Shown here: piece after piece, positions 1-54,699 of the stretch | Position numbering within the stretch: position 1 is the first letter of the stretch | Layout of the letters: every line of letters starts with the position of its first letter | Assembly (NCBI GenBank): GCA_028534125.1 | Contig: CM052816.1 | Coordinates: 15,936,001 to 16,000,000, forward strand | Reading direction: 5' to 3' | DNA: 64,000 nucleotides | Source: Lama glama | Taxonomy: Eukaryota | Notes under the pieces: generated by a model | What the model was told of the DNA's origin: nothing | Database searches by the model: none | The model's input: the letters and a program-made list of their open reading frames with translations, nothing else | Made by a program: the position numbers and the translations under genes

Positions 1-830
1 AGCGCGCGCGCACACACCTCCCACCGCTTTGCCCAAATTATTTTCGATCCCGGGAGACTCCGGATGCCAGACGCGCTCCGCAGCGGCGGCGGCGGCCGCG
101 CCTGATTCATTGCGCCAAAGCTGCAGATGCGACCTCCCGCCTGCGCCCTGTGCCCCGGCCCGCGCCGGGCTGCGTGCGCGCCTGGAGAGATGGGGGTGGG
201 GTGCGGCAATTTGTAGGAGCTCCCCCCTCAAGAGGCGGGCCCCGGCCCCCCGGGGCCAGGTCCCCGGTCCCCAGCTCCCCGGGCTGCGCTAATTAGCTTC
301 CTCGGGGGGCGCCACGCGGCGTGAGGGGCGGCAATTTCCCGGCTGGGCTGCGGGGGAAGCGCTCCCACCGCCTGGGAAGGTGAAATGGGAAACTCGATTC
401 AAAGAGAGCTTTCCTCCCCCCTCCCGCCAAGCGCCGTAGAAAACGGGTTTGAAATTCCTCCTCTCTCTCTCTCTTTTTTTTTTTTATTTATAGTGCACCG
501 TCTCCATGGAAACCGCGGAGGAGGTCACGGTAGCTGGGCCCCCGCGCGTCACCCCGCGCCTCGCCGGCTGCAGGCGCCCGGATTGCGGCCTCCCAGGCGC
601 CGCGGCCCGCGTGGACTCTACTCCGAGTTCCCCGCCCCCGCTCCACTCCGCCCGCGGCTCAGGCCATATGATTCTGCTGGGTCCCAACCGGGAATGGCGC
701 ACCTGGGCACCAGTGCGCTGGGCTATGCCTCTGTCCCCCGGCTCTGGCACGCGGGAATGCGCCAAGATACACGTGCCCAGCTCCAAGACAAGAACATGTG
801 CCGCGAGACGCCGCCAAGGGGCTCATAGCA
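1..830. promoter_or_regulatory. Orphan CpG island (truncated by window start)
   Basis: Dense CG dinucleotides and GCGGCG repeats; no recognisable protein ORF. Confidence 0.8.
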
Positions 831-899
831 CTAGTGAATGCCCTGGGGGATCGACCTATATAGGCGCACAACTCCAAAGCTCTTGCTAAAACGAGACCA

Positions 900-1075
900 C
901 CCATAGTTAAGAACGCTGGAGTCAACCGAGTCCCGCCTGGATAACTTACTTAGCTATGTGACTTTGAGCCAGTCGCAACCTCTTTGCGTCTCAGCTTGCT
1001 CATCAGCAAAATGGAATTGTGTGGCTGGAGACAAAGTACATTAAACACTTAACACTATGTTCGGCACGTGGTTCT
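900..1075 (+). mobile_element. MIR SINE fragment
   Basis: ACTTAGCTATGTGACTTTGAGC...CTCAGCTTGCTCATCAGCAAAATGG resembles the MIR core. Confidence 0.7.
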
Positions 1076-1229
1076 GGAAAATGGTAGCTGTGGCTGGTGT
1101 TATTTTTTTCAGGCTGGGAAAGCCGAGGCCACAAAACCTTTGCTCAAGGGCGCGGTCAGTCAGAAAACTGGGAGTTACACCTTGGGAGCTCCCCAGCACC
1201 TCAGCTTAGACTCACAGGCCAGAGGTGAG

Positions 1230-2200
1230 GGGACGCGTGCCGGCTGTACAGGGCCTGAGCCTGCCTGAGGCACAACGGGCGGGACCTCCTGAGCTAGCCA
1301 CATCCGCACCCGGAACCCTGGAAACGGGACTCCCCGCGGTGCGCCCCCCCCCCAGCCCCATTAGCAACGGGCCTGCCTGCCCTCCCTCCCAGGGCTGAGG
1401 CCGCACCTGCCCCACCGGATGGCCGCCCCAGGGCCAGATCGTGCCCCCTACCGCGCACACTTCCTCCCGGACCCCCACGGCCCTGTGGAGCGCGCAGGGG
1501 GAGGGGACCGGGCCACCCCCGCCCCGCCAGCTTCCCACAGCCCGAGCAGCCCGGAGCCGGGGAGGCAGGAAGTCTCAGAGCCGGGGCGTGGAGGCGGGGT
1601 AGGGGCAGGAAGTTGGGGGTGACTCTCCCAGAGACCCCAGACAGGGCCCCGGCGTGGGAGCGGGGTGGGCGGGCGCTTAGGGATTAAGGGCGCCCCCCCA
1701 CCCCCGCCTCTGTGGCCTCAGGCCACGTGACCCTGCCCGGAGCGCCCTGCTGGGTGAGGGCGAAGGCCGCTACCTCTGGCGACCCCCCAACAGTGCACAC
1801 AAGGAGGGAGGGGCAGCCTTTGTCTACTTTGCCTCAGACGCAGCCCCCCCACACCCCCTCCCCCCGGGCCCCGTCGGGCCCTGCACAGCCCGGGTTTTCC
1901 ATCCGGCCCGGCTCGGCTCGGCAGCTGTCAGGGGACCGAGCTGACCTTCGCGAGCAGGGAGTTTCAATTAGCCGCAGATCAGATAAGCGGGCGGGCCCGT
2001 CTCTCCGGGCACCGCGGGGGCGCAGCCCCGCCCCCGCCACGCCGCGCCAAACGCGCTCCAGATGGGAACAAAGATGAGGACGCAGCTCCACCTGCCTCCC
2101 CGGGGAGGGGGGAACAGGAGGCCCCGCCGGGAGAAGCTTCCCATCGGAGAAAAGGGTTGCTCACCCTCCCCTGCCCATCTAGGATCTCATTCCGGAGCAA
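1230..2200. promoter_or_regulatory. Second CpG-rich block with GC boxes and an E-box (CACGTGAC 1724-1731)
   Basis: Elevated CpG, several GGGCGG motifs. Confidence 0.6.
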
Positions 2201-2444
2201 GGGGTCTAGCCAAGACAGTCTTTGCTACTCCTCTTGCCTCTGGCGCAGCAGAGAGGTACCTGTCACGCTGACCTCATCCCTAGGCGGGCATCGTGCCCTC
2301 CCTCCCCCAGAGAGATGCTTTTGCCATCTCTGATCTCATCCAGAGCGCTCCCTGTGAGGCTGAGAGAAGCAAGCAAGAGCCCAACAGAGAAAGGAAACTG
2401 AGGTAGAGAAGGGCTGGACTTCCTGGTCCAGGTCACACCAACCA

Positions 2445-3050
2445 CATTTTTTCAGATGTTTGAGTGCCTACTAAGTGCCAGGTGCTGTTCAGACTATGAG
2501 AACATCAGCCCCATAGAGCTTACATTCTGATTCAGGGAGAGAGATCATAATCAAATAAACAAATAGTTTAACAAGATCATTTCAGAATTTCTGAAAAGTC
2601 ATGAAGATATTAAAATAGGTCATGTGAAGGCTGACTTCAGGGAGGCTACCATGTTAGCTACGGTAATCAGGGAGGGCCTCTCTGAGGGGGTGATATCTGA
2701 ACTGAGACCTGAAAGACCAGGAGGAACTTGCCAAGCAAAGGAGAGGATGTGCAACATGCCACAGTGGACATGCCACCGTGGGCGCAAAGGGAAGCAGATA
2801 GAACAGGGCTTTGCAGACCAAGTGAGTGATTGGGTTTTTGAAAAGTGCAAAGGGAGCCTTTGGTGGGTTCTAAACTGGGAGTGACATGGTCTGACTTAAA
2901 TTTTTAAAAATCCCTCTGGCTACTGTATAGATTAGAGGAAAGCAAAGGTGCAGGAGGGAGATGGGGAGGAGGGGACTGGAGGGAAAAAGGGGGTGGAAGA
3001 GGGCTTACAGGATTAGTGATATATTTTGGCAGATGAAGTGGATGTGGGGG
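2445..3050 (-). mobile_element. L2 LINE fragment
   Basis: TTGAGTGCCTACTAAGTGCCAGG, GAGCTTACATTCT, CAGGGAGGGCCTCTCTGAGG, GAGTGACATGGTCTGACTT: typical antisense L2 3' region. Confidence 0.75.
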
Positions 3051-3144
3051 CGAGGTGGAGCAACAGAAACTTGGTGAGAGAGGAAGGACTTAAACGTAGG
3101 TTGGCCTTTGGGAGCATGGAGGGTCTGCTTAGAGGTGAAGAGTA

Positions 3145-3340
3145 AAGTTATGGAGTAAGAATGCCAGGGTTCAAATACTAGAACAGATATTTTCTAGCTC
3201 AGTGACCTTGGGCAAGCACCTCTATCAATTTCTTCAAGTATTTTAAAAAGAAAAGGAGATTGTCACTATAAGCTTTGAAAAGGATAATATCTGAAAGGTA
3301 TTTACCAGAGCCTGGTAAAGAGTAGGTGCTCAATAAATTT
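3145..3340 (+). mobile_element. MIR SINE
   Basis: GGGTTCAAATAC...GTGACCTTGGGCAAG...GCCTGG...GTAGGTGCTCAATAAAT. Confidence 0.75.
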
Positions 3341-3809
3341 CGGCTATTATTTTGGATGTTGCGGCTACTCCCCCTCTCCCCCTATATCTGCCTTTTTGTA
3401 CCAGAACCATCCCCTGGCCTTCCCACCCCACCTCTGGCCTTGTTTTCATTTGCTGAGGACAGAAGCTCCACCTCTCATCTCCTCCCACCCAATCTTTCTT
3501 TGGAAAGGCAGTTTGGGGGGGATCATTGCAAAGGGACTCACCCAATCCTTGTTCACTAAACTGACTGCGGGGCTCCCTCCTCGTCCAGGACCCCAGAGGA
3601 GTCCCTGCCTGCCAGAGGAGTTGAGAGCATTCAACTACCATTCATTCAGTCAGTTGAGTGGCTCTCCAGGCAAGTCTGTGCTGAGTACGGAGAAAAGCAA
3701 ACCCAGGCCCTCCTCTCAGGCAGCTGCTTGGATGACTCTTTGGTTAGGGCATTTTGTGCTCTAGGGCAGGAGAACATGGAGGGGCTCCTTTGGAGAAGCA
3801 GGAACTACA

Positions 3810-4030
3810 ATCGCTCCCATTTATGGAGCCTCTGCCCAGCGCCAGTCACCATGCCCTGGTACATGTCATTGAGTCCTTACAACCACTCAATGAGGTCTAT
3901 TATTATTACTAGTCTTAATTTATGAGCAAATAAACAGAAACTTCCAAAAATGAAATGCCTTGCCCAAAATCACACAGCAATTAAGAGGTGGAGCTGGGAA
4001 TCTAATCCAGGTCCTGCTGAGGCCAAAACA
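3810..4030 (-). mobile_element. MIR SINE
   Basis: CATTTATGGAGC...CCTTACAACC...TTGCCCAAAATCACACAGC...GAGCTGGGA. Confidence 0.7.
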
Positions 4031-4650
4031 GGAGAATTTAAACATTCTATTATCTGGTCTCATATTCTAATAAATGCAAGGATGTCTCTGAAATTCCTGT
4101 GGTGATGGATCTTGCCCTTACTTCCCTCAACTCCCCTATATGCCTAAGGCTTCATCTGAATCCTCAGGAGCCCAGCTTGGTGCCATGTATACAGTAGGTA
4201 CTCAAGTACTGCTTGAATGGAGCTTCCTCTTGACAAAGTAGTGTTGATGCCTGCCTGAACCTTGACATTTCCCCTTGGGTCCTGGGGCCCTTATATCCCA
4301 TTTCAGAGCCTGTCAGTGCTGTTGACTAGAGAGAGAGAAGTTCTAGTTTGCATAATATTTGCATCTGCTTTGCATGCTGCTCACATAACATCAAAATGCA
4401 CAAAGGCCTAGGCCTGGTACCCCATTCCCCCTCTTGGCCTCTCCCCTCCACAACCTGCTGACCCCAAACAGGGGGTGAGGGTTTTTGGGAGTACCCATTT
4501 AGGGTCCAACTAAGCTTGTCTACTTCCAACATTGTGGGGACAGAGATGGGAAGATTCTTGTCTACCCTCATCCCTCACTCTCCTTCATCCCTTCCTGGAG
4601 GAATAGTAGTAGGTCAGAAGCCAGTGGCAAAAGCCACTGTTTGTGCAGAA

Positions 4651-4651
<1 letters not shown>

Positions 4652-4682
<31 letters not shown>
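4652..4682. repeat. (AC)n microsatellite
   Basis: About 15 AC units. Confidence 0.95.
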
Positions 4683-4683
<1 letters not shown>

Positions 4684-5918
4684 CAGTGCAACAGGAAACA
4701 TCTGGGATCTGGGTGCCTGCCTGCCACCCCATGACAGAGGTGGAGAAGGGAAAGGAGGCAGTTCTGCAGTGCTCCTGCTGCTGACAGTGGCTGGGCTGCC
4801 CCCTAGTAGGATCCTCATATCCCTGCCTCTCCTCACACAGATCCAGTCTGCCTCCCCCACAGCCAACTTCACACCTACAGACCCTTCTAATATGGCTCCT
4901 TGGGCTGAGGAAGGGGAGGGTAGGAACAGGAAGAGAGAGAGATGCCAGTAATGGGATGGTAGCAAGGACTGGAAAGAAGGAAACTGTGGCTCTATGATCC
5001 TGGGGAAAGAGGGGGAGAGTCTGTGCCGAGCCTGGCCCTACCCTGGACTTTTAACCAGGTCAGGACCTTTAAGAGACATAATGTGGGGATAGAGGAGGAG
5101 GGAGCTGCTGTGATTGGCTGGTGAGGCATGACTCACAGGAGTGAACAGAGGCCAGTAACTTGTCCCAGTTGGACCCAGACATCACTGTAATGAGTGTCTT
5201 GGGGTCCGAAGGGCCATGAGGTGTCAGCAGTTGAGGACTGTGATTTGCAGAGGTTTTTTGTAGCCCACACATGCCCCTTCCCCTACTCCAGGTTGAGATT
5301 ACAGGTTTGGAGGCATCCTGAAGGTGAACAGAAACTAGAGACCCAGTAATTCAGAATGGTGGTCTCACAAGGGGTCTCTGGATGGATGGAAGGCAGCAGG
5401 ATACTGACTGACTGGCTTTGTGCCAGCCATGTGATGGGTGCTGACGGTGACAGGACACTGAGAACCTGGCAGAGAGCCTCAGACCTACAGACCACCACTG
5501 CACAGACACTGCCCTGGGAGCCCTTCCTGGAGGAAGCAGCACAGGGGCTTGGCTTCAAAGGATGGGGAGAGAAAATGACAAGACAAGACATGTGACTAAA
5601 GGCATGGTGGGCAGGGACCACTTTGGGGTGTCAGGTACACCAGAAGGAGAGAAGAGGGAGGAGGCAGGCAAAGGCTGTATTGTGTCCAGTCTAGAATGCC
5701 TTGTTTTCTCGCTGGGGAGCCAGCACCTTAACAGGCAGGAGAGGACATGAAAGGTGGACACAGACTGGAGGAAGAGGCTGCAACCCTGGCTCACAGGACA
5801 CAACTTACCCCTGCCTTGGGGCATGGAAAGTATCAGGGCTGTGTGAAGTTCCCCAGTGCACCATCAACTCTGTGCACCCACTGCACTGCACTGCACAGCA
5901 TGTTGGGTTCTGCCTCCA

Positions 5919-6278
5919 TGATAGACTGATGTTTATGTTCCTCCAAAATTCACTTTGAATTCCTAATGCCCAGTATGATGGTATAAGGAGGTGGGGGCTT
6001 TGGGAGGTGACTAGGTCATGAGGATGGAGCCTTCCTCAATGGGCTTAGTGCCCTTATGAAAGGGACCCCAGAGAGATCCCCTGCCTCTTCCACCATGTGA
6101 CAACGTAGCGAGAATACAGTGCCTATGAACTAGGAAGCATTTCTTCACTGGACACCGAATCTGCCAGTGCCTTGATCTCGGACTCCCAGTCTCCTAGAAC
6201 TGTGAGAAACAGATGTTTGTCATTTAAGCCACCCAGTCTGTGGTATTTTTGTTATAGCAGCCCAAATGGACTAAGACC
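5919..6278 (+). mobile_element. MLT1A-type ERVL-MaLR solo LTR
   Basis: CTTTGGGAGGTGACTAGGTCATGAGG, TTAGTGCCCTTAT, GCCTTGATCTCGGACTCCCAG, AGAACTGTGAGAAA, TTTAAGCCACCCAGTCTGTGGTATTTTTGTTATAGCAGCC...GACTAAGAC end; ~360 bp. Confidence 0.9.
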
Positions 6279-6559
6279 CCTACCCAAGAGGGGCTCCCTA
6301 GAGGCCTGAGCTCCCAGAGGAAACTTCCACCTGGTGTGGCCTCTCCTGGTCCTTGGCCTCTTCTTGTGTGTGCCCTCGTCTCAGCTGAGACCTTCACAGT
6401 CATCCCCACAGCCCTGGGTGTAACTCCAATTACCATAACTTATAGTCAGAGAATCTCCTTGAGCCTGAGTTTCCTCATCTCAAATGGAAATTTTCTAAAT
6501 TTTCTAGAATTCTTATAAGAATTTAAGTTGGATGAAGTCCTTAACAGAATGCCTGAATT

Positions 6560-7090
6560 TCATTTATTTAATCATTCTCTATTTATTGAGTGCCAGACAT
6601 TGTTTTAGGTACTGGGGTTTCAGTAGTAAATCACAGAGACAAGGTCTCCTGTTCTCAGAGGTTTCCATCCTGGAGAGGGAGAATGAATATAAACCACAAA
6701 TATGTAAATGAGAGAATTTTACATTATGACCAATGCTGTGAAAGTATAAATAGGATAATGTAATAGGGTGACATTACAGCACAACTGGAGGTCAGAGTGG
6801 GTGGTTTTTGATAAGGTGGTCAGGGACCTTGTCTCCAAGGTGTCATTTGAGCTGAGACCTGAATAATGAGGAATCTATTATGCTAAAAGGCAGAGGAAGG
6901 GGGTTCCAGGGAGCAGAAACAGCAAGTGCAAAGGCCCTGAGGCAGGACCCTGGGGAGGCTGGTATGGCTAGAGCAAGGGGAGCAGGTAGGGTAGAGGCTT
7001 GGGTACTGTAGGTCCTCAAGGACTTTGGAAGGAGCCTAGGTTGAATTCTAAGGGCCTTAGAAAATCACTGGAGGTTTTCAGCAGGCGTGT
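6560..7090 (-). mobile_element. L2 LINE fragment
   Basis: ATTTATTGAGTGCCAG..., GGTGGTCAGGGA, TCATTTGAGCTGAGACCTGAA, CAGCAAGTGCAAAGGCCCTGAGGCAGG. Confidence 0.8.
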
Positions 7091-8274
7091 ACTGGGAATT
7101 GATTTACATAGTAATTGCTCAATAAAGGCTTGTTGTTGTCGTAATGAATAATAATAATAATATAAAGCCCAGAGAGGAATAGCAATATGCCCAAGGTCAC
7201 AGAGTCCCCACCACACAGCCCCTTCCTCCTTTGACTGGCCTCCCCTCCCCTAAGGAGCCCTGTGGATCTGCCCCAAGCCTGGCGGGAAGGAGGTGAGGGC
7301 AGCCTCCCTTCCCTCATTCCCGCTCCTTCCCTCCGGCCATTTCCCGTGCTCCTGGCGCCTGCGCCCCAATTAGCCAGCGAGGCTGACGGCCTTGGCTCCA
7401 AATGACAGACACCTCCTGTCACCCCCTGACGGGCGAGGAGATTAACTCTGAGCGGCACCGGTTCCAAGGGACGACAACAGGGAGGGGAGAGGAAGGGGGA
7501 GGGGATGACCAAGCTTCCCCCCACCAAAAGCCCCCAGTGCCTTGGAAGGAAGGGGGGCTGGAGGGGGGACCCAGCTCTCCGAGAAGAGCCCTAGCAGGCT
7601 GGGGAGGACCGCCCCACTCTGCTGATTGGCTGCTCCAGTGGGGGCCAGTGCCCCAGCCTCCACCCTCTGCTGCTCTGAGGGCAGGGACCTTGCGATGCCT
7701 GTGGGTGCTTCACACCTGAACCGTCAGTTCTGGGCACAGAGTGGATGCCCAGTAAGCACTTGTGGCCCGACTGTGCTAAGTACATTTTTTTCATGCAGAA
7801 CTCATGAAACAACACCCCCATTTTAAAGAACAGAAGACTACTAAGGCTCAGAGGTGGAGGGACTAGTTCAAAGATGACACAGATGGCCTAGAATTTGAAC
7901 TGAGGCTGCCTGGTGCCAAAGCAAGTGCCTAACCACTGTACTAGATCACTCTTCTCCTTAGGCAGAGACTCAGCTCATGCCACGTAGGAATTTATAATCA
8001 CTTTGGGGCAATGAGACACAAACCTTGGAAAGGGAATTAACATAGCTGTTCTGGTCATAGATGCTGAGTGCCAGGCAGGGGTCAGAAGTTCCAAGTAACA
8101 CACCCCTAGAGAGTGGAGCCAGGAGAGATGGTACAGAATGGAATTGTGTTTCCTAGAGAAGAGTAAGCGGGATCTCTAACAAAGGTATAACTTGTGAGAA
8201 GAAGACAAGAGGAAGGCATTCTAGGCAGAGAATTTCACAAAGTCTTGAAGGCAGAGAACTGACTGGGCAAGGCA

Positions 8275-8700
8275 TGCATTAATTGGTCAGGACTTCAAGT
8301 TGCAAGTGACAGAAACCCAACACACACTGGTTTAAGCAAAATTAGAACCAATCTGTTCATTCTGAGGCTCGAATAGAAAAGTGTTTGGCTTCAAGTGCAA
8401 GGATCAGCTGCCCTTTGCTGGGTTCATTCACAGATAGTTCTCCCCAAGTGACAGCAGCCTCTGATTCCCACACTACCATATTAACAACCTCTACCCCATA
8501 ATTCCAACCAAAGCTCTGGGATTCAACCTGATTGACTAAGCCCAGGTCGCGTGTCCATCTCTGAACTAATCACTGTGGTAACGTAGGAGTTTGCTGATTG
8601 GCCAGGTCCCCCAGCACTAGTGGTAGGTGAAGTCACTCTAAAGCCCTAAGGGTGGTGGGGGAAGACAAAGGTGGTCCCCAGAAGGGAGGCACCTGGGGCC
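8275..8700 (-). mobile_element. Old MLT1 (J/K/L-like) LTR
   Basis: GTTGCAAGTGACAGAAACCCAA...TGGTTTAAGCAAA and CTGATTG...CAGGTCGCGTGTCCATCTCTGAACTAATCACTGTGG. Confidence 0.7.
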
Positions 8701-9264
8701 AGGCAATACCAGGACTCTTCAGTTCCAGGGCTAGAGTCTAAGCTCCGAATGACTCCTTTATGGGGAGCCTGAGGACCTCCACTCTCCCCAATTCCAAGAG
8801 TTCTCACCTGTGCAGATGACATCCATCAGTCCAGCTCTGGCCAGGTGAGAAGGGGGTCCAGGAAGCCTCCTGATCCAGGACAGGAGGGCCTTGAGAGTTT
8901 CCTCTTACTGAGATGCTTTGGTAAGCTATGGGCTTACCTGATATCTCCACTTATCCTGTACCCTGTAAGTACCCCCTAGAGTTTGTTTCACTATCAGGGT
9001 CTTTAATTGCCTTTTACAAAGTCACCAGATCTGACTGCCAAGAAGAGCAGTTTTGCAACAGGAAAAACTATGGCCAGGTGCCAGGAAGGACTTCTACAGG
9101 TAGAGTTTTCCATCCCATAGTATGGGATGGGCATGGCAGTGTTAGCAAGAGAACAGGCAACAGCTGGGCCAGCCCGCAGTTTAGAGTGAAAAGTACAGCA
9201 GCTCATCCTAGAGCTAATGACTGGAGGTAATGTGCTCCTTTCACCAGGAGGAGTAGGGAAGGCA

Positions 9265-9480
9265 CTGTGCTTTGGCAGTCATGCTTGGGGTTTGGAGCGT
9301 GAACTTGGAAGTCATACTGACAGAGATTTGAATTCTGGGTCAGCTGAAAGATCTTGGGCTTGCGCTGTCCAGTCTTGGTTTTCTTATCTGTATAATGGGG
9401 ATCATACAAGGCCTGACCTCAAGGGATAGCTAAGTGCAAATGAGATATTGCATCCAGGTGCTGAAACAGAGATTCTTCCA
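9265..9480 (+). mobile_element. MIR SINE
   Basis: TTGGAAGTCA...TTTCTTATCTGTATAATGGGGATCATA. Confidence 0.6.
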
Positions 9481-10288
9481 TTAAGGGGCAGCTGTTATTA
9501 CTAATATTCTTCTAGCTCTTGACAAGACAGGCCCTTAGCATAGAGCTACCGGCAACTCTTTCTGGACCTCAGTTTCTCCATTTGTACTTCCAGCCCTCGC
9601 ACTCTTAGGGTGGGTGACTTAGATGATCTCACTGGAGAGAGGACCCCTCCCACATCAGTCAATCCGTGTGTGTCGGGGTGGGGGGGTTGGGGAGGGAAGG
9701 CGACAGGCAATGCCCAACCAACGATTTCACCAGGCTGGGCAGGCAGCGCCAGGCAGGCGGGAGCTGGTCAGGTTTTTAATTGAACGCGATGCAAATGAAA
9801 TGTAAATACCATGCAAATAAGCTCTTGCCAGGAGGCGCTGGGCTGGGAGCAGAGGGAGCAGGGAGGGGACTGCTGAGCAGGGGCCCTCCCCTGTCCCCCT
9901 TTCTCTCTCTCCTGTGGCTGCCCATGCCCCTGCCCAACCCCTGGTGCCGCCCACCCAGCCAGGCCATTACATTCTCGGAACAGCGGGCACTGCATCCCCC
10001 GAGAGCCACCCCCTTCCAGATCCACATCTCTAACCCTGAGGCTCCTGGTGGTGGTGACAGGATGCTCAATGAGGAGCCATAGAACCTGTGGTTGGGACTA
10101 CGCTAACCCAAACACAGTCACACAGAAAGACCCATGGAGACATAGAGGGGACACACAGATATAGACATGCAGGAACCTACATTTCCCTCTCAAGTTCCCT
10201 GCAACACTGAGACCCACAAGGGCAGCCAATAACACACAAATATATACAATTGCACATTGCATCGCAAATACACACAGTGGCAGAAATA

Positions 10289-10389
10289 CACCCAGTCATA
10301 GGGGCACATGCCTACACACACACACACACATACACATTTACAGAGCCTGTCCTGCCATGAGGATGGCACCCAGTCATAGGGGCACATGC

Positions 10390-10459
<70 letters not shown>

Positions 10460-10498
10460 GCGCGCGCCCAGAGAGTCTGCCCTGCCATGAGGATGGCA
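10289..10498. repeat. Tandem duplication whose units each contain a (CA)n tract; second unit has (CA)~32(CG)5
   Basis: CACCCAGTCATAGGGGCACATGCCTACAC at 10289 and 10367; CCTGCCATGAGGATGGCA closes both units. Confidence 0.9.
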
Positions 10499-12489
10499 AA
10501 CTGAAGTTCCTGTGCTGGCCTGAGGTCAGGGCTGGGGGATGGGGGGGACAGGCACCCTGTGTGGTCAGAGCCTGGTGGTCTGAGTGAGGCCAGATGGGCT
10601 GTAGGGGGTGAGGGGATCCTTCCAGGTGGCCCACTCCCCTATCCAAAGACACATCACCATACCCCAGGGCTCATAGCCACTAGACAACCCCAGGCGTTGG
10701 TCCATCCTCAAGTCCTGGGGTACTGAACCCCATCCTGGGATTTGGAATCCCCCTGCGGTTATATAGCCTCCCTCCCCTTGAGGCAGCCAGCTGTTTGGGG
10801 GAGGTTGGCCCAGGTGACAGGGCCTGATCTGCTACCTAAGGAATCCATCCCTACCTTGCCAAGGGGTAGGGGATGAAGAACAGGGGAGTGGAGGAAAGGC
10901 TGAGCCTTCTGGACAAACCTCCATTCCATCCAGGATCCACATCTGGGGGTGGTTCCAGCCCCCCGCCCCTGAAGTGACTCACGACCCACATTTAACTCTC
11001 ATTAGCGCCTCTGAGCCCAGCTGGGAGGGACAACCGCCAGCTTCCCCCAGCAGACAAGGAGCTCTGGGTGGGCCGCCCTCGCAGCCTCAGTTTCCCCCCA
11101 GGGGCCTGGCCCAACGACAGGGGCTGCGTGGGAGAGCTGTGGCTCATAGTCCCCTTCATCTGAGCTGGGGCTGTCCTCCGCCCCATGGAATGAGGGACTG
11201 GGTGTGGCCTCTTCCAGGAACCCCAACCCCAATGCCCCTGCCATATGCACCACAGCTTCAGATAATCCCCCACCCCAACCAGGGCCCAAGGGTCAGGAAG
11301 GAGGGGAGGGGGAAGATGGAGTTAGATCTGAGGGGACTGAAGTTGCCGATGATACTGTGGCCAATCAGGCCCAGGCGCCCCCCCAAAAAAAGTGCTCCCC
11401 CTCAGCCAGGGCCTTACACAGAGCGGGGGTGGATGAATGGGGCCAGAGAAACGGGGACGTGGCCAAGGACCCATGGCCATTCTGACCTCCTTCCTTCCCC
11501 TGCTTCACAGCCTCGACCTTGCTCTTATTTTAACTAATTCAGCCTCTACTCCTTCAAGGTGCACAGGATGCCCTGGGCGCAGGTCTCTGGGAAGCCATGC
11601 CAAAGACCCCCACCCTACCCCAGGAGGGGCCAGTTCGGCCTGCCTCGCCCACACTCCCTCCCCTCTTCTCCTCTCTGTGGGAAGGAGGCAGCTGGGGCGG
11701 GGGTGGCCTCGGGAGCGTCTTGCCCGTGTGATCGTGCCGAGCCGGGAATTCGGGGCCATGTGGGAAAGACATTAGTGCCGGCCGCCCTGCCAGCTAGGAA
11801 TGCGCCCCCCGCTCTGCAGCCGCCGCCTGCCTGGCCCAGAAACGGTGACTCACCCGCTCCGTGTTCGTGTTCCCACCCCCTCATCGTGCACCCTCCACAG
11901 CCCACCACAGGCCTGGCTGCGGGCTTTCCAGGCTCCCTGCCTTGCTCCCGCTGGTCCTGCTACCTGCCTTGCCTATCCTCCAGTCTCTACCAATCTCATC
12001 ATGCTGAAAGGGATCACACCTCCTGGGGAGACCTCAGACCCCCTCCCCAGGCCTATCTATTCTCTGGAGAATTGCTGTGATTCAACACTTCTTTGGGGCT
12101 TAGCCCCCCAGGATGTCTCCCTCATTCCAGAAGTACTCACCTCTGGGCCCTCACACCCTTCCCAGAGGCTGGAGCACAGGGCAGGTGCAGAAAAAAGAAA
12201 GACATCAATGTTAAATTTGGGAAGCAGAGTATTGAGTGGGGAGTGCTGTTTCTCCAGCTTCCCCTCTGAGACCTTGGAATAGTAAACAATGCTACCTCCC
12301 TCAGAATATGTGACCTTGGATCCCTTGTCTGAGCCTTCCTTTCCTCACCTAATACAACAGGGATAACAGTGCCCACCCTGTGTGCAGAGGCGGCCTAAGC
12401 AGAAGCTTTTGTCTATAGTATCCTCAGCTCAGGGGCTGCGGCTGAGAGGGCCTCAATCACAATGACACAGTGATGGTGGTGATGACATT

Positions 12490-23704: not shown

Positions 23705-24694
23705 GACACAAACATGCATTCGTTTTATTCACAAAACAGCCTGGTTTCCTAAAACAATACAAACAGCATGTTCATCAGCAGGAAGCTGGCCATGGGCAAG
23801 GGGGCCCCTGGGCACCCACCACCACCGGCATGGGGCCACGCAAAGAAGCCCTTTCTTCTGTTGCCAGCAGCAAGGCCAGAAAAAAGGGACTTATTTTCTC
23901 TAAGGAAAGTAGCCAGGTTCAGAAATATTGAGACATGGGCTCCCCAGATCTCGATGGATAAACGACAGAACTTTCGTTTTCACAAAATCATCACTGTTGG
24001 GGTGGGGGATCCCATTCTGGGGACCGTGGGTGCGGCATGGCTGGCCTGCCCCTCCACCCCACCCCGGGGAGGGTGAGTGGGCTGCTCCCTCCCGCTCTGC
24101 GAGCTCCTCGCGGCAGCTCCACACGCGTGGATGGATACACAGGGGCTTCGATACGGCGCCATCAACATTCTCTTTATAAACGTGAGTGGATTCTCCAGGC
24201 AAACTATGCACTATTTCATGGTCGGAAAGAATTAAAGGAAGTTTAAATGAGGGTGGAGTTAAACTGTGCTAAATTACAGTAGTGCTTATTAGTAACTAGA
24301 TTTCAAAAGGTTACAGAAAATTTACATTCTCTACACAAAAACTGCATCTCCTGCACAGACAACATCAACATCGACACAGGAAGGAAACTGATTGTCCATT
24401 CTCTGCCCAGGAAGTCTCGGTACTTTATAGATTCGTCTTTACCTCTTTTTTTTGTTGTTGTTCTTCCGAAAAAGCAGTTAAATTTTTTTTCTTTTCTTTT
24501 TCTTTTTATACTGGGGACGTGGAGATGTTAAAACGACAACAAAAAATATATATATAAAAACAGGAATGAAATCTGTGAGAATATTTTTGGTTCTAAAGAC
24601 GGGTGCATCCGTTTGTCTTCGCCCGAATCCCTTGCCGGAGACCACACGAGCAGTGACATTGCACGGAGAGGGCAGCTTTGGGTTCCCGCCGCCG
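23705..24694 (-). other. CXXC5: CXXC5 3' UTR (~1 kb, with AU/U-rich blocks)
   Basis: Follows the TGA; AT-rich tracts at 24160-24600 contrast with GC-rich flanks; ends after AATAAA. Confidence 0.85.
23724..23729 (-). terminator. CXXC5: Polyadenylation signal AATAAA
   Basis: Plus-strand TTTATT; minus strand reads GAATAAAACGAATGCATGTTTGTGTC, i.e. signal followed by GU-rich sequence. Confidence 0.85.
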
Positions 24695-24739
24695 TCACTG
24701 AAACCACCGGAAGGCGGCTCCCGTCGGAAGCATCACCTT
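24695..24739 (-). CDS. CXXC5: CXXC5 terminal coding exon, KVMLPTGAAFRWFQ*
   Basis: Minus strand reads TTGTCTCCCGCCCCCGCCAG|AAG GTG ATG CTT CCG ACG GGA GCC GCC TTC CGG TGG TTT CAG TGA, the known CXXC5 C-terminus; spliced total 319 aa. Confidence 0.97.
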   Translation of the reverse strand, partial: KVMLPTGAAFRWFQ

Positions 24740-26268
24740 CTGGCGGGGGCGGGAGACAAAAACAAGGAGAGAGTTCAGTCAGGGTCCGGCTGGGCCTGGT
24801 GCAAAGACGTTCCCCCGTGGATGGCCTCATGGCGGAGGGATGGGCATGGAGTAAAAGCGGCCACCCCGTGGAGTTCCTGCCATCCTGGCCAGGCCAGAGG
24901 AGGAGCCTGACCCGCTGGGCCACTGGAGGGCCTGGAGCACCTGGAGGCCTCCTGAGCCACTGTGCCCAGAAACACTCCATCCAGACAGGAGGACCCCTTT
25001 CCCTGGTCCAAAAGCCTTAAGCGCCAGGCGGCTGTGGTACATCTGAGAGTTACGGTCACGTTTCTGTCAAATCAGTGTGTACGCGTGTGCACTGGACACA
25101 TACAAGGTGTGTGCCCTGAGCTATGATACAGTGTGTAGTGTGTCTGGAGCTGTGGTGGGAAGGAAGGATGCTTGCTGTGTTTTAAGAGCTGCGTCTATAA
25201 TAAGACTGGGTACTGGGCAGGATGTATGTGTGTGTGTATATATCTGTCTCTACACTAGATGAGAGCAGGTGCCTTTGTGTGCACACAAGTGTGTTCTCTG
25301 GACAGGAGAGCAGATACATGATGTTTGGGGCTTGGGGTGGGGGGCTAGCCACAGCTGGAATACCACTGTTTTATAACCATTCTGGACATCTGCGTCAAGC
25401 CCGCTCGCAGAGGGGCGGGGACAGGGCACAGTCAGCAGGCTGAAAAGATGCTTTTGTCCCTGGGCCTGACACCACAGCAAGGTGTCATGGCTGAGGGCAT
25501 GGGGACAGGCCCTGCCACAAGGGTGGCGAGAAAACAGCATGGGAACCCTTCTGCCTTCTCAAAGCCAATCCCATAGTGGACAGGGCTTGCCCATACCCCA
25601 GGCTCAAGCCACCCCCTATTTCCAGGCCCATAGGACCCCTGGCTATTAAGTATGCAGCCAGACTGACCTTAGGGTCCCAAGGCACCCCAAATTTGTTAAC
25701 TAGGTGCCTAGAGCTAGGGTTCTTCCAGCCCTCAGAGCAGGGCAGTCAGCACTGGAGCTGCTCTATCCTTGGGTGGCCTCAGGGGTAAAGGGTGGGCTCT
25801 GAAGGGACAAATGAGGGGCTAACCCCTCAAAGCCACAGGGTCCACCAGACAGAACCCCTCAAATGGTGCAGAGGAGAGTCCCGGCATCTTGGGTCAGGGA
25901 CTGGAAGCGTTAGGACATGTCTGAAAGTCAGAGACTTAGGACCTGTGTGGGAATCTCAATACCTGACCTAGAACTCCAGGAGGGGTTCAGAATCCCGAGG
26001 CCTGGAGAGAAGGCTAAGCCTCTGCCTGGAATTTCATGCTTGCCTAGGCTCAAAACAACCTGAGGGCATCTATCTCAGGATGTGGCTCTGACTTGTGGGG
26101 CAGTGAACTAGTGTCTTGGAGCCTGCCCTAAAACCCCAGAGCCCAGGGATGGGCTGGGCATCCCCCAGACACTTGCCCAGGCAGGAAAGGTGGGAATAGG
26201 GGTAGGAGTGGGTTTGGACTGCCAGACAGACGCAAGAGCCCACACACCTCCCTCTAAGGCGCCGTTAC

Positions 26269-27183
26269 CTCCAGAGCAGCGGAAGGCTTCTTTTTGAGTT
26301 CCTCACATTTTCTGAATTTGCAAATCTGATGGCCAGTCTTTCGGTTCCTACAACTGCTGCACTGCTCGCAGTTGATGCGCCGCCGGCAGGGCGCACACAT
26401 GCCGCAGCGTTTCCGCTTCTTCTTGCCCGAGCTGATGGCGGAGGCCAGCTCTCCCTGCATGGGGTACTCGGCCAGGCCAGCCATGTGCAGCGCACTCTCA
26501 GCCAGGAACACGCCCGCTGGGGTCATGATGAAGAGGCCTGGGTTGATGGGGAAGGCGCCCAGGTAGGGGAAGTCGGACTGGCCGTTGAGGGCTTCGGCAC
26601 CCGCCACAGCCTCCATGTCGGGCAGGCCGGCGCCGGCTTCGCTCATCAGCGGTAGGTGCTCCTGCACCACGCGCTTCAGCATCTCCGTGGACTGCGCGAA
26701 CTGCTGCAGCGTCAGCTGTCCCTCGGCTGCCAGCTCCGTGGCCCGCTCTGCCTTGCTCAGCAGGCTGGCCACAGCACCACTTTTGTGCTTTGAGGTAGGG
26801 TTGCTTTTGTCCACAGCCATGGCTGCTGCCAGGTCATGCCCATTGGCCAACAGGGAGGCAGCGGCTGCAGCCGCAGCAGCCTTTTCGGTAGACTCCCCGC
26901 CCATCATGCTGCCACCACCACTGCCACCACTGCCCCCAAAGGAAGAGTAGTGGGAGAGAGGGCGGGAGCGGCGCAGGCTCTTGTTGAGGGGTTCGCTGAT
27001 GATGCCGCTCTTGTTCCGACGCTCGGGGGGTGGTGCATCATCCGCCACCGAGGTGGGCACAGCCGCAGCTGCCGCTGCACTCTTGTCTACCACTCCAGCC
27101 TTTGGGCCACTGCCACTGCTGCCACCGATGTTGCTGCTGCTACTGCTGCCGGTGTCCTGGGGGCCACTGCCGAGGCTCGACAT
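26269..27183 (-). CDS. CXXC5: CXXC5 main coding exon (codons 1-305): Ser/Gly/Ala-rich N-terminus, poly-Ala run, basic NLS and CXXC zinc finger
   Basis: ORF 26254..27252 contains MSSLGSGPQD...PPPERRNKSGIISEPLNKSLRRSRPLSHY...KKKRKRCGMCAPCRRRINCEQCSSCRNRKTGHQICKFRKCEELKKKPSAALE, matching mammalian CXXC5; ATG at 27183 in CCACCATG context; phase-0 donor GAG|GTAACG at 26269/26268. Confidence 0.98.
26296..26424 (-). other. CXXC5: zf-CXXC domain with basic NLS (KKKRKR) and the RKTGHQICKFRKC Dishevelled-binding segment
   Basis: Eight-cysteine CGMCAPC...CEQCSSC...C...C pattern in the translation, typical of the CXXC4/CXXC5/TET-type CXXC domain. Confidence 0.95.
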
Positions 27184-27343
27184 GGTGGGGCCGAGGCCCA
27201 GACCCCACTGTTGGGGGAGCCTGCCAACTGCGGGGGGTCCACAGATGAGCACTTGGCCCTGCTGCCCACGACAGAGACACCTGGTAGGCCTTGCTGCTCA
27301 GGGCAGGTACATGGTCAGGTGTCCACGTGGCAGTGTCTTCACT
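27184..27343 (-). other. CXXC5: 5' UTR portion of the main CXXC5 exon (160 nt)
   Basis: Acceptor CCCTGTATCCTCTTGCCCTGACAG|AGTGAAG at 27344/27343 with pyrimidine tract and CTGAC branch-like motif upstream. Confidence 0.85.
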
Positions 27344-30032: not shown

Positions 30033-30132
30033 NNNNNNNNNNNNNNNNNNNNNNNNNNNNNNNNNNNNNNNNNNNNNNNNNNNNNNNNNNNNNNNNNNNN
30101 NNNNNNNNNNNNNNNNNNNNNNNNNNNNNNNN
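30033..30132. other. Assembly gap (100 N) next to a poly-G run
   Basis: Run of N followed by G11; true length unknown. Confidence 0.99.
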
Positions 30133-35032: not shown

Positions 35033-37269
35033 AGACTCAATTGTCACTCTCTGTGGGTTTGAGCACTGATGTACACATGGGCTTATACACCAGTGGAGTG
35101 GAGGTCTTTGTGGGACTTCCCCATGTGTACAAGTGGAGTGTGTGCGATACACATTGTGGATGTCTGCGTATGACCAAATGTGTGCGTGTGTACAAGTATA
35201 GTGGTTTACATGGTGGCTGGATGTTTGTGGGATCTTCTGGCCTGTGAAGATGTACGCCACATGTACGCCAGTGTGTATGCACATGTGAGTGAGCTCACTG
35301 TGAATTTTATCCAAGCCTGAGGGGTTCTGGGATGTGAGTCTGGGGCCCACCTGGGATGGGGATGGTGCAGGCAGGAACTGATGCCAGGTTTTGGGGCCCC
35401 TATGGAAACAGGAAGCCCATAGGTACACTTGGGCTGTGGTGAAGGCTCAGCTCCGCCCAGGTTCAGTTTGTGCCCCTGAGAAACCAATCCAGGATTCCGC
35501 TAGCCAAGAACCTGTCCCAACCACGAGGGAGGCACCTGCCTTCTCTGCTGTTCAAGACCCAACAGCTCTGGCCAGCATCTACCCTCCTGCCTGGCCTGGG
35601 CGTGGAAAAAACTGGAAAACAAAAGCCCCCAGACCACAGGCCCTCCCTGCAGAGGTGTGGGGGAGGCAAGCAAGAGGCAGGAGGCTGAGGAGGGAGGGAA
35701 GTGTCGCCGCAGCCCCGGAACACAAAAATAATGAGGCGAGAGGGGCCATGGGGCCGAGCCGGCTGGTTCCGGAGTCGCTATCTGACCTTGACAGATGCCA
35801 CAGCTGGGCGCCTGGAGAGGAGCCGCCGCCACAGTGCTGCAGAACACACCCCCCTCCCAGGCCTGGTCGATGGAGGTTCAGGCAGGCCCCAGCCACAGGC
35901 AGCCACCCCACCAGGTGGGAGAGGGAGCCCTCAGAGTGCATCCCAGTTAGGCAGTGGGGGTGGGATGGGAGGGTGTGAGGCAAGAGAGTGGGGTCAGGAC
36001 TACTGCAGGGCATGGGAGGCAGCAATGGGGTCTCCTGAGGGCAACCTGGCTCTCAGGTGTGGCAACGTGTGTGAGAAACACACAGAGCGTGCTATTGTGC
36101 TTGTGGAGCTGTGACGCTGAGTGTGTGGTAAGAGAAGCAAAGTGTGAGTATGGGTGTGACAGAGACAAAGATCAGACTTGTGTGTGTGTGTCCTTGGGGT
36201 CACTGATTACTCCCCTGCCCCCTTTCAGAGCCACAGTTGTCCTGGCGGGCGCAAGCCACAAGCTCCCCCAACCCAACCAAGTTCGGTCACTTGGAGATGG
36301 AGGAGAGGTGCCCTTGTGGCCCTCCCTGGCCTCCCCTCTCTGCCACTGTGGTGGTGGTCTCAGGCACAGCAATGGGTGCCAGGCTGGGCATCACCACTGT
36401 GGGGACACTAGTGAGGGGTTGGGGTGTGAGCTGCAGGAGGGGATGCTGGGCTGGAGGCGGATTAGCAATTCCGAGCACTGGCTGCATAATTAAAAAATCA
36501 TTACGGCAGGCGGGCAGAGCTGAGTGTGAGCTCACGCTCAGAGCGGGTGGGGACACTGCCATGGCGCTCCCCCTCCCATCGCTTCCCTGAGGAAAAATCC
36601 CACCTGCTAATATAATTATGGAAAAACACAAGCACAGAAATTCGGTTTCAGCAAACAATGTGCCTGAGTGCCCACGGCCTGCCTGGCCCTCAGCACGGTG
36701 AGAGCCTGGTCACGGGTGCCCAGGGCTCCGGGCAGTGAGGCAGGCCCTGCTGGGTCCATACTCCAGACCCTGACATCCACCCCCTCAGCAGCCCCCAAGA
36801 GAGGGTGGGGGTAGGGACATGTAAAGCCCAGCTCCTCAGATCCCAAATCCAAGAGAAAGCTGGTCTATCCTGATAGTTTACAAGTGGGGAAACTGAGGCT
36901 AAGGAATCTGTATAAGGTCACCGTTTGTGGCAAAGCTGAGAGGAAAAGTGGGACCCCGCTGCATCAACGCAATACCTCAGGAATTCAGCCCCATCCCTTC
37001 CCCTGTATCCTTCCAGCTTCCCTGTCTCATCTGTCATCCCCCTAACCTCCTCCTCTCCTGCTGGGATGGGCAGCTATCTCTCTCAGACTGAACGGGATGC
37101 TCAAGGCAGCTATCCCCGCACCTCCCAGCAGGTACTCACGCATGGAATCCAAGGATTGCGGGGCGAGGGGACGACTAGCCTCTCAGTTCAGGGACAGGGT
37201 GTCCTGGGCTCATCTGGGTTAAGCTAGGCCAGCAGGGCTGGCTCCTGCCCCGAGAAAAGATGGCCAGCT

Positions 37270-37570
37270 CTGGGGCACAGGCCCCAGATCGGCAGGAACA
37301 GCCGCCATCACCTCGGGCCTGGAGCGGGCGGTGTGGGGAGGGGAGCCGGGCCTAATTAGTCGGCCTGGGACCCGGGCGGGCAGGCGCCGGGGCGGCAGAC
37401 GCAGCAGCCGGAGCGGCGCAGGCACGTCCGCGGCCGGGAGGCGGCGGGGAGCCGGGAGGCGGCGGCGCCCTGAGACCCGGTGGTACAGGCGGCCTGGGAA
37501 GGCCCGGGCCAAGGAGATTCCGCACCGAACAGGCCTGCCTCCTCTCATTCCTCGGTGCCACCAGGCGCAG
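37270..37570. promoter_or_regulatory. Small intronic CpG island, candidate alternative promoter
   Basis: Local CpG peak (GCCGGGCGGCAG-type sequence) just upstream, on the minus strand, of a GTGAGT donor at 37134-37139. Confidence 0.6.
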
Positions 37571-52830: not shown

Positions 52831-54699
52831 CCATACCAACAGACTAGACCCAGGTAGCCTCATCTAGCAGCTGACACTGTCTTTGGCTTTAGGGGGCAGG
52901 TGGAATGGTTGGAGATTCCTGGGTCTTTGAGGGGGCAGTCCTTTCTCATTGCCCGCAGCCTGGGAGGTGGGCTCAGAGTTGGGGGGAATAAAGGGGGAAG
53001 TAAGAGAAAGCAAAAAAAAAAAAAAAAACTTGAGTGGGATATTCTTGTTGAGCAGTAGCGCGTGAGTAACTGGGGAGGCTTTTTGTGGTCTGGTGAGTTC
53101 CAGCTATGAGTGAGAGTTTAACTATTAATACACTTAATCAAGGACACTTCACACACACACAAGCACACCCATACAACCACACACATAGGATAGGATGGGA
53201 CCAGATGGTGGGGGTAAGAGAGGGAGAGCCCCAGGAAAAAAAAAAATGGGAAAACCCCATTCAAAGCCCCAGTGGGTGGGGAAAGAGGGCGGAGCTTCTA
53301 CCCTGGGCCTGCCTCCAGAGCAGGGGCAGAGTCATAGTGATTCACTTTGGTATCCCCAGAAGAGTGAGGCTTGACACACAGTAGGTGCTCAATACACACT
53401 GGGCCAATGAATGAATAAGTGAATTACACATGAAGAGTGGGCAATAATAAGCAAGCCCCACTCCATCCTTGGCCAATTAAGGCACGCTTCAGAGCACTGC
53501 TTGGAGAGCTAGTGCTGACTTCATGGTCACCCCACCAGACAGGGGCCCTAGGAAAGAAGGCCTGGGTCTGGGTCATCAGTATCCCCTTATTCCTCCACCC
53601 TATCCTGCACCCTGGAAAGTCAGCTGACTTCAGCCCAGCCCAATACACCTCTCTTTCAGAGAGACCCCCATCTTCTTTCCAACCTTCCTATAAATAACTA
53701 GGTGGGGTCCCCAAAGAGGGTGGGGTATTTAATTCCCAGAGACTTGATTCTTTATCCAGATGAAACCCTGCCTTCTATACTCCTATGAGCCTCAGTCTGA
53801 CACTTGCCAAATGGGTAGAAAGTAGACAAAAAGCTGGAAAGAGGGAGTAAGAGTTGGGGGTCATAGTGGGAACTCATAGAATATAGGCCTGGGCTGGCCT
53901 GGGCCCTGGATGCAGAATCCTCCCTTCCCCTTCCCTTCCCCCACCCAGCCCAGCCCTCCCGGGTGGACATTCCAGGCCTCACGTGATAAAGACGAGGCCG
54001 CTGGCCCACGGGTAAGTCAACAGGCTCTGTCGGCGGAGAGATAGGAGGCCCCAGCCAGGGTCACCTGCTGAGCCGGGAAAACAGCCGGGCCCAAATACAC
54101 ACATAAATAAGGCGCCAACAGCCAGCCAGTCAGCCAAGGGTCTTCTGCTCAGGAACCTCTGCCCCCACCTTGGAAAGGGAGGTGGTATGGGAGAGGGAGG
54201 TGCAAGGCTGGCTCCTGCTTCCCTGGGAGAGTCCCAGCTCCTGCCAGGATTGGAGGTGGAGATGGGGAGCGTGGGGCGGTGGGCTTCTACCAAGATCCCC
54301 AGGGCTGACTGAGAACTCAGAGGCCAACCTCCCTCAGCTGTTCCCACCCCTTCCCAGGGCAAAAATCACCCCCTCTCCCTCCTCCCCAAGGAGAGAGAAC
54401 AATTTCCGTTCTGGGAAGGGGGTGACAGCTGCAGAGCGGGCCACTACCCCCCCTCCCCCAGCTCTTGCTTGAGTCTCATCCAGGGAAACTGCTAAATCAA
54501 CACTACGCAGTAGTAGGTAGCGCTGGCCTCAGTCTCCCTGCATGGCTCTCAAAAAGGGGTTTGGGGAAGAGGCTTAGGGTCTCAGTTCCTGGGTTTTCTA
54601 TGACGGCTGGCATCCAGCGTAAGGGGGTCTTTCTGGAGAGGGATCAAGGCAACCTTAAGGCAGTACGCCCCCCTAAAAACGTCTAAATGCTTTCAGTTG

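What the first reader, a model, noticed from the sequence alone, without database searches (positions are those of the whole stretch)
4345..4376. Second, independent 11-bp-phased octamer triplet in the opposite orientation
Seen: TTTGCAT starts at 4347, 4358 and 4369; the minus strand reads ATGCAAAG-CAG-ATGCAAAT-ATT-ATGCAAAC. The spacers differ from the 9789 array, so this does not look like a recent copy. Inference: the same three-octamer, 11-bp grammar twice within 5.5 kb suggests a selected POU-multimer element and possibly a paired (shadow) enhancer system. This is the most unusual unexplained structure in the window.
Basis: partly seen in the sequence, partly recalled or inferred. Interest (0 to 1): 0.7.

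Follow-up and report, generated by a model that had tools for sequence, protein, structure and literature searches.

The report
Twin phased Oct-site triplets near CXXC5
Two separate stretches of mammalian DNA downstream of the CXXC5 gene each carry three Oct/POU-type binding words exactly one DNA turn apart, a pattern too exact for chance that probably marks enhancers; whether the spacing itself matters is untested.

Summary
Three identical octamer-type heptamers sit at an 11-bp period (minus-strand sites 4346-4375). It is the only exact, non-low-complexity 7-mer triplet in the window (null 0.05 per window). A second triplet with the same core and period lies at 9789-9818 on the other strand. 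Of 10 near-perfect triplets in the window, only these two share a core; 0 of 150 simulated windows held such a pair. Cores are intact while the two inner spacers differ at 4 of 4 positions, which neutral slippage rarely gives (about 0.0006). The flanks of the two arrays show no clear homology. Best reading (0.6): two POU-factor homotypic clusters in enhancers 14 and 19 kb past the CXXC5 3' end, with all sites on one face of the helix. Binding, conservation, genome-wide enrichment, target gene and the 'shadow enhancer' idea are untested. Only 1 of the 3 sites here is a perfect octamer. Phased homotypic sites and POU clusters are known. I found no head-to-tail 11-bp POU triplet in 10 literature searches, and it is not MORE. 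New variant of a known kind; interest 0.42.

The parts
4346..4375 (-). Array 1: three octamer-type sites at an 11-bp period (4368-4375, 4357-4364, 4346-4353). The middle one is perfect, the outer two differ at position 8, and all keep A at position 5.
9789..9818 (+). Array 2: three octamer-type sites at an 11-bp period (9789, 9800, 9811). The outer two are perfect, the middle one differs at position 4, and all keep A at position 5.
4400..4406 (-). SOX-like word (motif recalled), 24 bp upstream of array 1 on the same strand; not at the composite Sox-Oct spacing; weak
   Evidence: 17 such words in the window, 1 within the two 230-bp zones examined (about 0.12 expected)
9777..9782 (+). Homeodomain-like word (motif recalled), 12 bp before array 2; weak
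   Evidence: 52 such words in the window
9650..9850 (.). CpG-retaining segment around array 2: o/e 0.57 (0.40 for 9700-9900). The segment around array 1 has no CpG.
   Evidence: 10 of 285 background 200-bp windows reach 0.57 and 57 of 285 have none
3837..4030 (-). MIR-like repeat (label recalled), ending about 315 bp left of array 1; the array itself is outside it
23724..27297 (-). 3' part of CXXC5: coding frame with the zf-CXXC domain (26257-27297), last exon and poly(A) signal (23724-23729). Arrays 2 and 1 lie 13.9 and 19.3 kb past this end.
   Evidence: best match: human CXXC5 chain 5w9s_C, E=9e-29
1..2400 (.). CpG-island-like segments (1-1100 and 1701-2400), an alternative nearby target promoter

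Best explanation
Each array is a selected homotypic cluster of POU-factor (Oct1/2, Oct4, Oct6/Brn, POU2F3 class) sites inside a distal enhancer of the CXXC5 region. Shown from sequence: three near-octamer sites, head to tail, 11 bp apart, twice. Inferred mechanism: three POU monomers bind in tandem, each turned only about 10-21 degrees from the last. All POU-specific domains then face one way and all homeodomains the other. This would let strong sites help fill weak ones (weak-strong-weak here, strong-weak-strong at 9789), by protein contact, DNA allostery or joint attack on a nucleosome. It would also present an aligned surface to OCA-type coactivators, which need A at position 5, kept in 6 of 6 sites. 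The output would be a sharp response to POU dose. The arrays may have begun as 11-bp micro-duplications, with selection then keeping the cores and the period but not the spacers. The binding factor, cell type and target gene are inferred, not shown.
For: Shared core and period in 1 of 45 pairs of the window's 10 triplets, and in 0 of 150 null windows; expected second triplet of this core 8e-7 at one period and 2e-5 at any of 23 periods. Core identity 21/21 against inner spacers 0/4; about 0.0006 of neutral triplications with intact cores would look so. Perfect or lightly degenerate 11-bp arrays with this core in environmental contigs keep their spacers largely uniform (5 of 7 loci; L003 and L006 are more variable). 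The core is the POU octamer, and all three mismatches spare position 5 (PMC12755459 passages). Helical phasing of homotypic activator sites at about 11, 22 and 33 bp is reported in fly enhancers (PMC2761283 passages), as are clusters of the same heptamer (PMC3243966 passages). CXXC5 has a super-enhancer in glioblastoma stem cells, where POU3F2 is also a core gene (PMC6504206 passages; its position relative to the arrays was not seen).
Against: No conservation, binding, accessibility or expression data were obtained, and no genome was held. Only 3 of 6 sites are perfect octamers. Array 1 has no CpG retention. 2 of the other 8 triplets in the window also have random-level inner spacers (0/2 and 5/20), so divergent spacers are not unique. 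For array 2 the neutral model is rejected only weakly (0.03). The segment just right of array 1 matches 58593-58833 weakly (E=0.002), so it may be a decayed repeat; 10 of 40 random queries gave such a hit. The same 11-bp pattern arises without any mammalian context: 7 metagenome loci, at least one of them bacterial-looking. The described POU dimer elements that I read about are dyads, not direct repeats.
Confidence: 0.6

Rival explanations
1. One ancient enhancer was duplicated and inverted, or both arrays come from one unrecognised ancient repeat family. The shared 11-bp period is then inherited once, not chosen twice. The sites may still bind POU factors.
For: Unmasked segments find each other at E=0.002-0.004. 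Upstream flanks align at the 2% level, 36 of 50 aligned bases. There is a weak repeat-like match beside array 1.
Against: With arrays masked the match falls to E=4.8. The flank match is a G-rich run at a different offset. Spacers differ between arrays (13/60 pairwise over both). The 58.6-kb look-alike carries no array. MIR-like and L2-like profiles from the window hit neither array (the L2 profile found only its own two seeds, so it is a weak test).
Confidence: 0.12
2. Neutral slippage: two decayed 11-bp micro-duplications that happen to contain an octamer, with no function.
For: The window holds 10 near-perfect triplets against 0.95 expected. 11-bp tandem repeats with this core exist in unrelated environmental DNA. 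The finding was picked from a very large scan.
Against: It needs the same core and the same period twice, and all changes to fall in the spacers (0.0006 for array 1, 0.03 for array 2).
Confidence: 0.1
3. A functional array, but read by a non-POU factor that recognises the 7-bp core, or in part by a C/EBP or PAR-bZIP-type factor, whose recalled half-palindrome overlaps one site of array 1.
For: Position 8 varies in 2 of 3 sites of array 1, so the invariant word is 7 bp long, not 8.
Against: 3 of 6 sites are perfect octamers. The bases before the core differ in every copy of array 1 and among the copies of array 2, so an extended bZIP palindrome is not kept. 7-of-8 matches are common in POU clusters.
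Confidence: 0.08
4. An ordinary POU cluster in which the sites matter but the spacing does not: both periods are accidents of duplication of the shortest unit that leaves room for neighbouring POU proteins.
For: Many POU factors bind single octamers stably as monomers (PMC11873960 Introduction). No paper found describes an 11-bp preference.
Against: All 4 neighbouring intervals in two apparently independent arrays are exactly 11 bp, and no other close spacing occurs among 39 sites.
Confidence: 0.1

Closest known systems
MORE and PORE dimeric POU elements (Oct1, Oct2, Oct6, Brn2; PMC11873960, Introduction read)
   Same: Several POU domains on adjacent sites with fixed geometry; cooperative binding is described for them.
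   Different: MORE is a 12-bp palindrome for two proteins (read); PORE is a 15-bp quasi-palindrome (recalled). Here there are three sites in direct repeat with 3-bp gaps.
Oct-2 cooperative binding to adjacent octamer sites (LeBowitz et al. 1989; title seen in a reference list only)
   Same: Homotypic neighbouring octamers bound cooperatively.
   Different: Spacing and orientation tested there were not seen by me; these arrays are natural triplets with one fixed period.
Helically phased homotypic activator sites: Bicoid, Caudal and Dorsal in fly enhancers (PMC2761283, passages)
   Same: An 11-bp period that puts sites on one face of the helix.
   Different: A statistical trend for non-POU factors in Drosophila; here an exact triplet of POU-type sites in a mammal.
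Drosophila castor cas-6 neuroblast enhancer (PMC3243966, passages)
   Same: Five copies of the same 7-of-8 octamer heptamer, three inside a full octamer, in one conserved enhancer.
   Different: No fixed 11-bp period is mentioned in the passages seen.
Tandem degenerate octamers of the MMTV promoter (recalled, from no call; one search found nothing)
   Same: Head-to-tail octamer-like sites with a short gap, bound by Oct-1.
   Different: Two sites, not three; period recalled as about 12 bp; a viral promoter.

Membership tests
POU octamer site cluster | Match to the 8-bp octamer | tested here: met
   Array 1: one 8/8 and two 7/8. Array 2: two 8/8 and one 7/8.
POU octamer site cluster | Local density above chance | tested here: met
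POU octamer site cluster | Bound by a POU factor in vitro or in vivo | not testable with these tools
   No ChIP, footprint or EMSA data available.
OCA-coactivator-competent octamer (OCA-B, OCA-T1/T2) | Adenine at position 5 of the octamer | tested here: met
   6 of 6 sites; requirement from PMC12755459 passages. Necessary, not sufficient.
MORE element | 12-bp palindrome of two half-sites | tested here: not met
   All three sites lie on one strand; no opposite-strand octamer-like site within 40 bp of either array.
PORE element | Octamer preceded by an inverted half-site at fixed distance (definition recalled) | tested here: not met
   No inverted near-octamer beside the sites; a recalled half-site word occurs only at 9326.
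Sox-Oct composite | SOX word directly abutting the octamer (definition recalled) | tested here: not met
   The nearest SOX-like word is 24 bp from array 1; none near array 2.
Conserved distal enhancer | Sequence constraint across mammals | not tested
   No genome held; no look-alike windows; none of the 7 metagenome hits is orthologous. Four organism labels share all sampled words, too close to inform.
Shadow enhancer pair | Two elements driving overlapping expression of one gene, each partly redundant | not testable with these tools
   Needs single and double deletions.
Neutral minisatellite | Changes spread evenly over the repeat unit | tested here: not met
   Core 21/21, inner spacers 0/4; model share 0.0006.
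MIR-derived sequence | Alignment to a MIR profile | tested here: not met
   A profile from the window's own copies gave 63 hits to E=20, none over either array; the nearest was 4256-4308 at E=12. A curated repeat library was not available.

The most novel reading that the evidence does not exclude
An undescribed POU grammar: three octamer-type sites head to tail at exactly 11 bp form a cooperative trimer platform, distinct from the palindromic MORE/PORE dimers. It aligns three coactivator-docking faces (or three sites on one face of a nucleosome), and it evolved twice independently at the CXXC5 locus as a redundant, switch-like POU-dose sensor. It should then show up genome-wide as an 11/22-bp peak in octamer spacing.
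Probability: 0.25. Interest if true: 0.75.

Novelty: new variant of a known kind. Interest (0 to 1): 0.42.

Why it matters
POU factors set cell identity in stem, neural, B and tuft cells, and how they are arranged on DNA decides which coactivators they recruit. The described multimer elements are palindromic dimers. A natural direct-repeat triplet with a fixed one-turn period, present twice at one locus, gives a sharp and cheap test of whether strict spacing grammar exists for POU factors in mammals: a spacing histogram in public ChIP data and a spacer-insertion reporter. It would also name candidate enhancers for CXXC5, a super-enhancer gene in glioblastoma stem cells (PMC6504206). If the spacing does not matter, these are two ordinary octamer clusters.

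Tried and rejected
Own genome: none held, so no genome-wide spacing count. Earlier findings: nothing by place or relatives, nothing for the gene name or the first word set; 8 unrelated microbial or viral arrays. Orthologue hunt in metagenome contigs: 7 of 7 hits were 11-bp tandem repeats in environmental DNA, none matching the flanks. I ran no control for how often any 11-bp unit gives such hits, so their number means nothing. Sequencing runs: 14 of 24 rows hold all sampled words and may be the source DNA. Two RNA runs of one study hold 0.49 of the words and four more RNA rows hold 0.04-0.21. No reads or contigs were laid on the array, so transcription and variation stay open and these shares are not used as evidence. 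Rfam: 0 matches in 1-12000. No real ORF: the frames over nearby DNA run through a CA repeat. Repeat origin: MIR profile negative; L2 profile uninformative; self-BLAST found 3 short hits only. Paralogy of the arrays: not supported once masked. My first neutral-decay figure (2.4e-6 at best) used a unit frame chosen after the fact (spacers 0/12; another frame gives 1/12); I rely on the more cautious inner-spacer version. Literature: 10 searches found no 11-bp head-to-tail POU triplet and no octamer element at CXXC5. The library lacks most subscription papers, and the Malik 2018 POU review was not held. Passages of PMC3730104, PMC4004051, PMC12119339, PMC3855764, PMC5964179 and PMC11564870 held nothing on this spacing; supplements of PMC3730104 and PMC12119339 (dimer and spacing tables) were not opened and could hold a POU-POU spacing.

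Full report
What is there. The window is mammalian DNA holding the 3' part of CXXC5 on the minus strand. The frame 26257-27297 has a zf-CXXC domain whose best match among solved structures is human CXXC5 (E=9e-29, against 3e-21 for CXXC4). The poly(A) signal is at 23724-23729. The flagged array lies 19.3 kb past this end and the second array 13.9 kb past it. The large CpG island at 54401-57700, probably the CXXC5 promoter region (inference), is about 50 kb away; another island ends at 2400.

The heptamer starts at 4347, 4358 and 4369. Read on the minus strand these are three octamer-type sites: a perfect one flanked by two with a change at position 8. The array at 9789 has two perfect sites flanking one with a change at position 4. 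All 6 keep A at position 5.

It is more than chance. Array 1 is the only exact non-low-complexity 7-mer triplet at periods 8-30; 40 Markov-4 windows gave 0.05 on average. Allowing one mismatch, the window has 10 triplets against 0.95 in the null, so slippage is real here. But only 1 of the 45 pairs shares a core, namely these two arrays, which also share the period; 0 of 150 null windows had such a pair. The expected number of further triplets of this core is 8e-7 at one period and 2e-5 at any. A more cautious estimate of my own, treating the other 9 triplets as given, is 1e-3 for the core and 1e-4 with the period. Among 39 near-octamer sites, the only same-strand pairs within 60 bp are the 6 inside the arrays.

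It does not look like neutral decay of a duplication. In array 1 the cores are identical (21/21 pairwise) while the inner spacers differ at 4 of 4 positions. About 0.0006 of neutral triplications with intact cores would show this; the figure for array 2 is a weak 0.03. Against this, 2 of the other 8 triplets also have random-level spacers (0/2, 5/20), and the core boundary was chosen from the data. A pattern scan of metagenome contigs gave 7 hits, all 11-bp tandem repeats in unrelated environmental DNA. They show that slippage alone makes this period and core. Five of the 7 keep fairly uniform spacers, unlike array 1; L003 and L006 are more variable.

The arrays look independent. With both masked, their segments match at E=4.8 only; one of two flank comparisons reached the 2% level on a G-rich run. 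A MIR-type profile from the window's own copies hit neither array. The DNA just right of array 1 (4396-4631) matches 58593-58833 weakly (E=0.002), a level reached by 10 of 40 random queries. It may be an old repeat, but that copy has no array. No curated repeat library was available, so a repeat origin is not closed.

Context is mildly enhancer-like for array 2 and neutral for array 1. CpG o/e is 0.57 at 9650-9850 (0.40 at 9700-9900), a level reached by 10 of 285 background windows; array 1 has no CpG, like 57 of 285. A SOX-like word lies 24 bp from array 1 and a homeodomain-like word 12 bp before array 2 (motifs recalled; weak).

How it most likely works (inference). A POU domain binds the octamer with two linked modules (PMC11873960, Introduction read), on opposite faces of the helix (recalled). 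An 11-bp step turns the next protein by only 10-21 degrees, so three proteins would stack in register with 3-bp gaps. Strong sites could then help fill weak ones, through contact, DNA allostery or joint competition with a nucleosome, and give a steep response to POU dose. The kept position-5 adenine leaves all sites open to OCA-type coactivators (PMC12755459 passages). I could not model steric fit, and POU2F3 touches bases outside the octamer, so crowding at a 3-bp gap is possible. I put 0.6 on selected, phased POU clusters; 0.12 on one ancient origin; 0.1 on functional sites with accidental spacing; 0.1 on neutral slippage; 0.08 on another factor. A neural or glial setting is one candidate, since CXXC5 and POU3F2 are both super-enhancer genes of glioblastoma stem cells (PMC6504206 passages), but nothing here names the factor or cell type.

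Comparison with what is known. It works like a helically phased homotypic cluster (PMC2761283 passages) and like the octamer-heptamer cluster of the fly castor enhancer (PMC3243966 passages). POU factors are flexible on repeats, as Pit-1 on CATT repeats shows (PMC5778499 abstract and passages), and cooperative Oct-2 binding to adjacent octamers has been in print since 1989 (title only). It is not a MORE, PORE or Sox-Oct element by the tests above. Ten searches found no 11-bp head-to-tail POU triplet and no octamer element at CXXC5; the library misses most subscription papers, a key review was not held, and spacing tables in supplements were not opened.

Limits. No genome was held, no look-alike windows were on record, and no reads or contigs of other samples were laid on the array. 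The four organism labels that hold the stretch share all sampled words and say nothing on constraint. Conservation, genome-wide enrichment, binding, target gene and redundancy are all open.

Verdict. Real and statistically strong; probably two POU enhancer clusters; a new variant of a known kind. Interest 0.42. The bold reading, a distinct 11-bp POU trimer grammar, has probability about 0.25 and would deserve 0.75.

Noticed in passing
L001, L005, L007 (GC 18-28%), around the matches at 984, 3001 and 695: Short 11-bp tandem arrays with the octamer-type core lie in very AT-rich contigs. In L005 six copies sit between genes that look like those of a giant virus (my reading of the ORFs; no family search run). 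Could be a recurring intergenic element; no control for chance was run.
   Followed up: partly
L003:1-2592: A contig made largely of degenerate 11-bp repeats with the same core on both strands (49 exact cores, chains up to 55 units). Origin unknown.
   Followed up: partly
L006:3001-3029: Three 11-bp units just upstream of the ribosome-binding site of a gene in a bacterial-looking contig; possibly a phased operator.
   Followed up: no
window 4396-4631 and 58593-58833: Weak 240-bp inverted similarity (E=0.002); possibly two copies of an old, unrecognised repeat.
   Followed up: partly
window 1-64000: Self-BLAST finds no young SINE family (3 short hits), while MIR-like copies are dense (63 profile hits to E=20).
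   Followed up: no
window 30033-30132: A 100-N assembly gap.
   Followed up: no
window 1-2400 and 37101-37600: CpG-island-like segments: one about 21 kb past the CXXC5 3' end, one upstream of the coding exon; candidate promoters or enhancers.
   Followed up: no
window 5915-6278: Looks like an MLT1-type solo LTR between the two arrays (label recalled, no library check).
   Followed up: no
window 9435-9454: Inside a MIR-like copy, two octamer-like words with 1-2 mismatches face each other, about 340 bp from array 2 (read).
   Followed up: no
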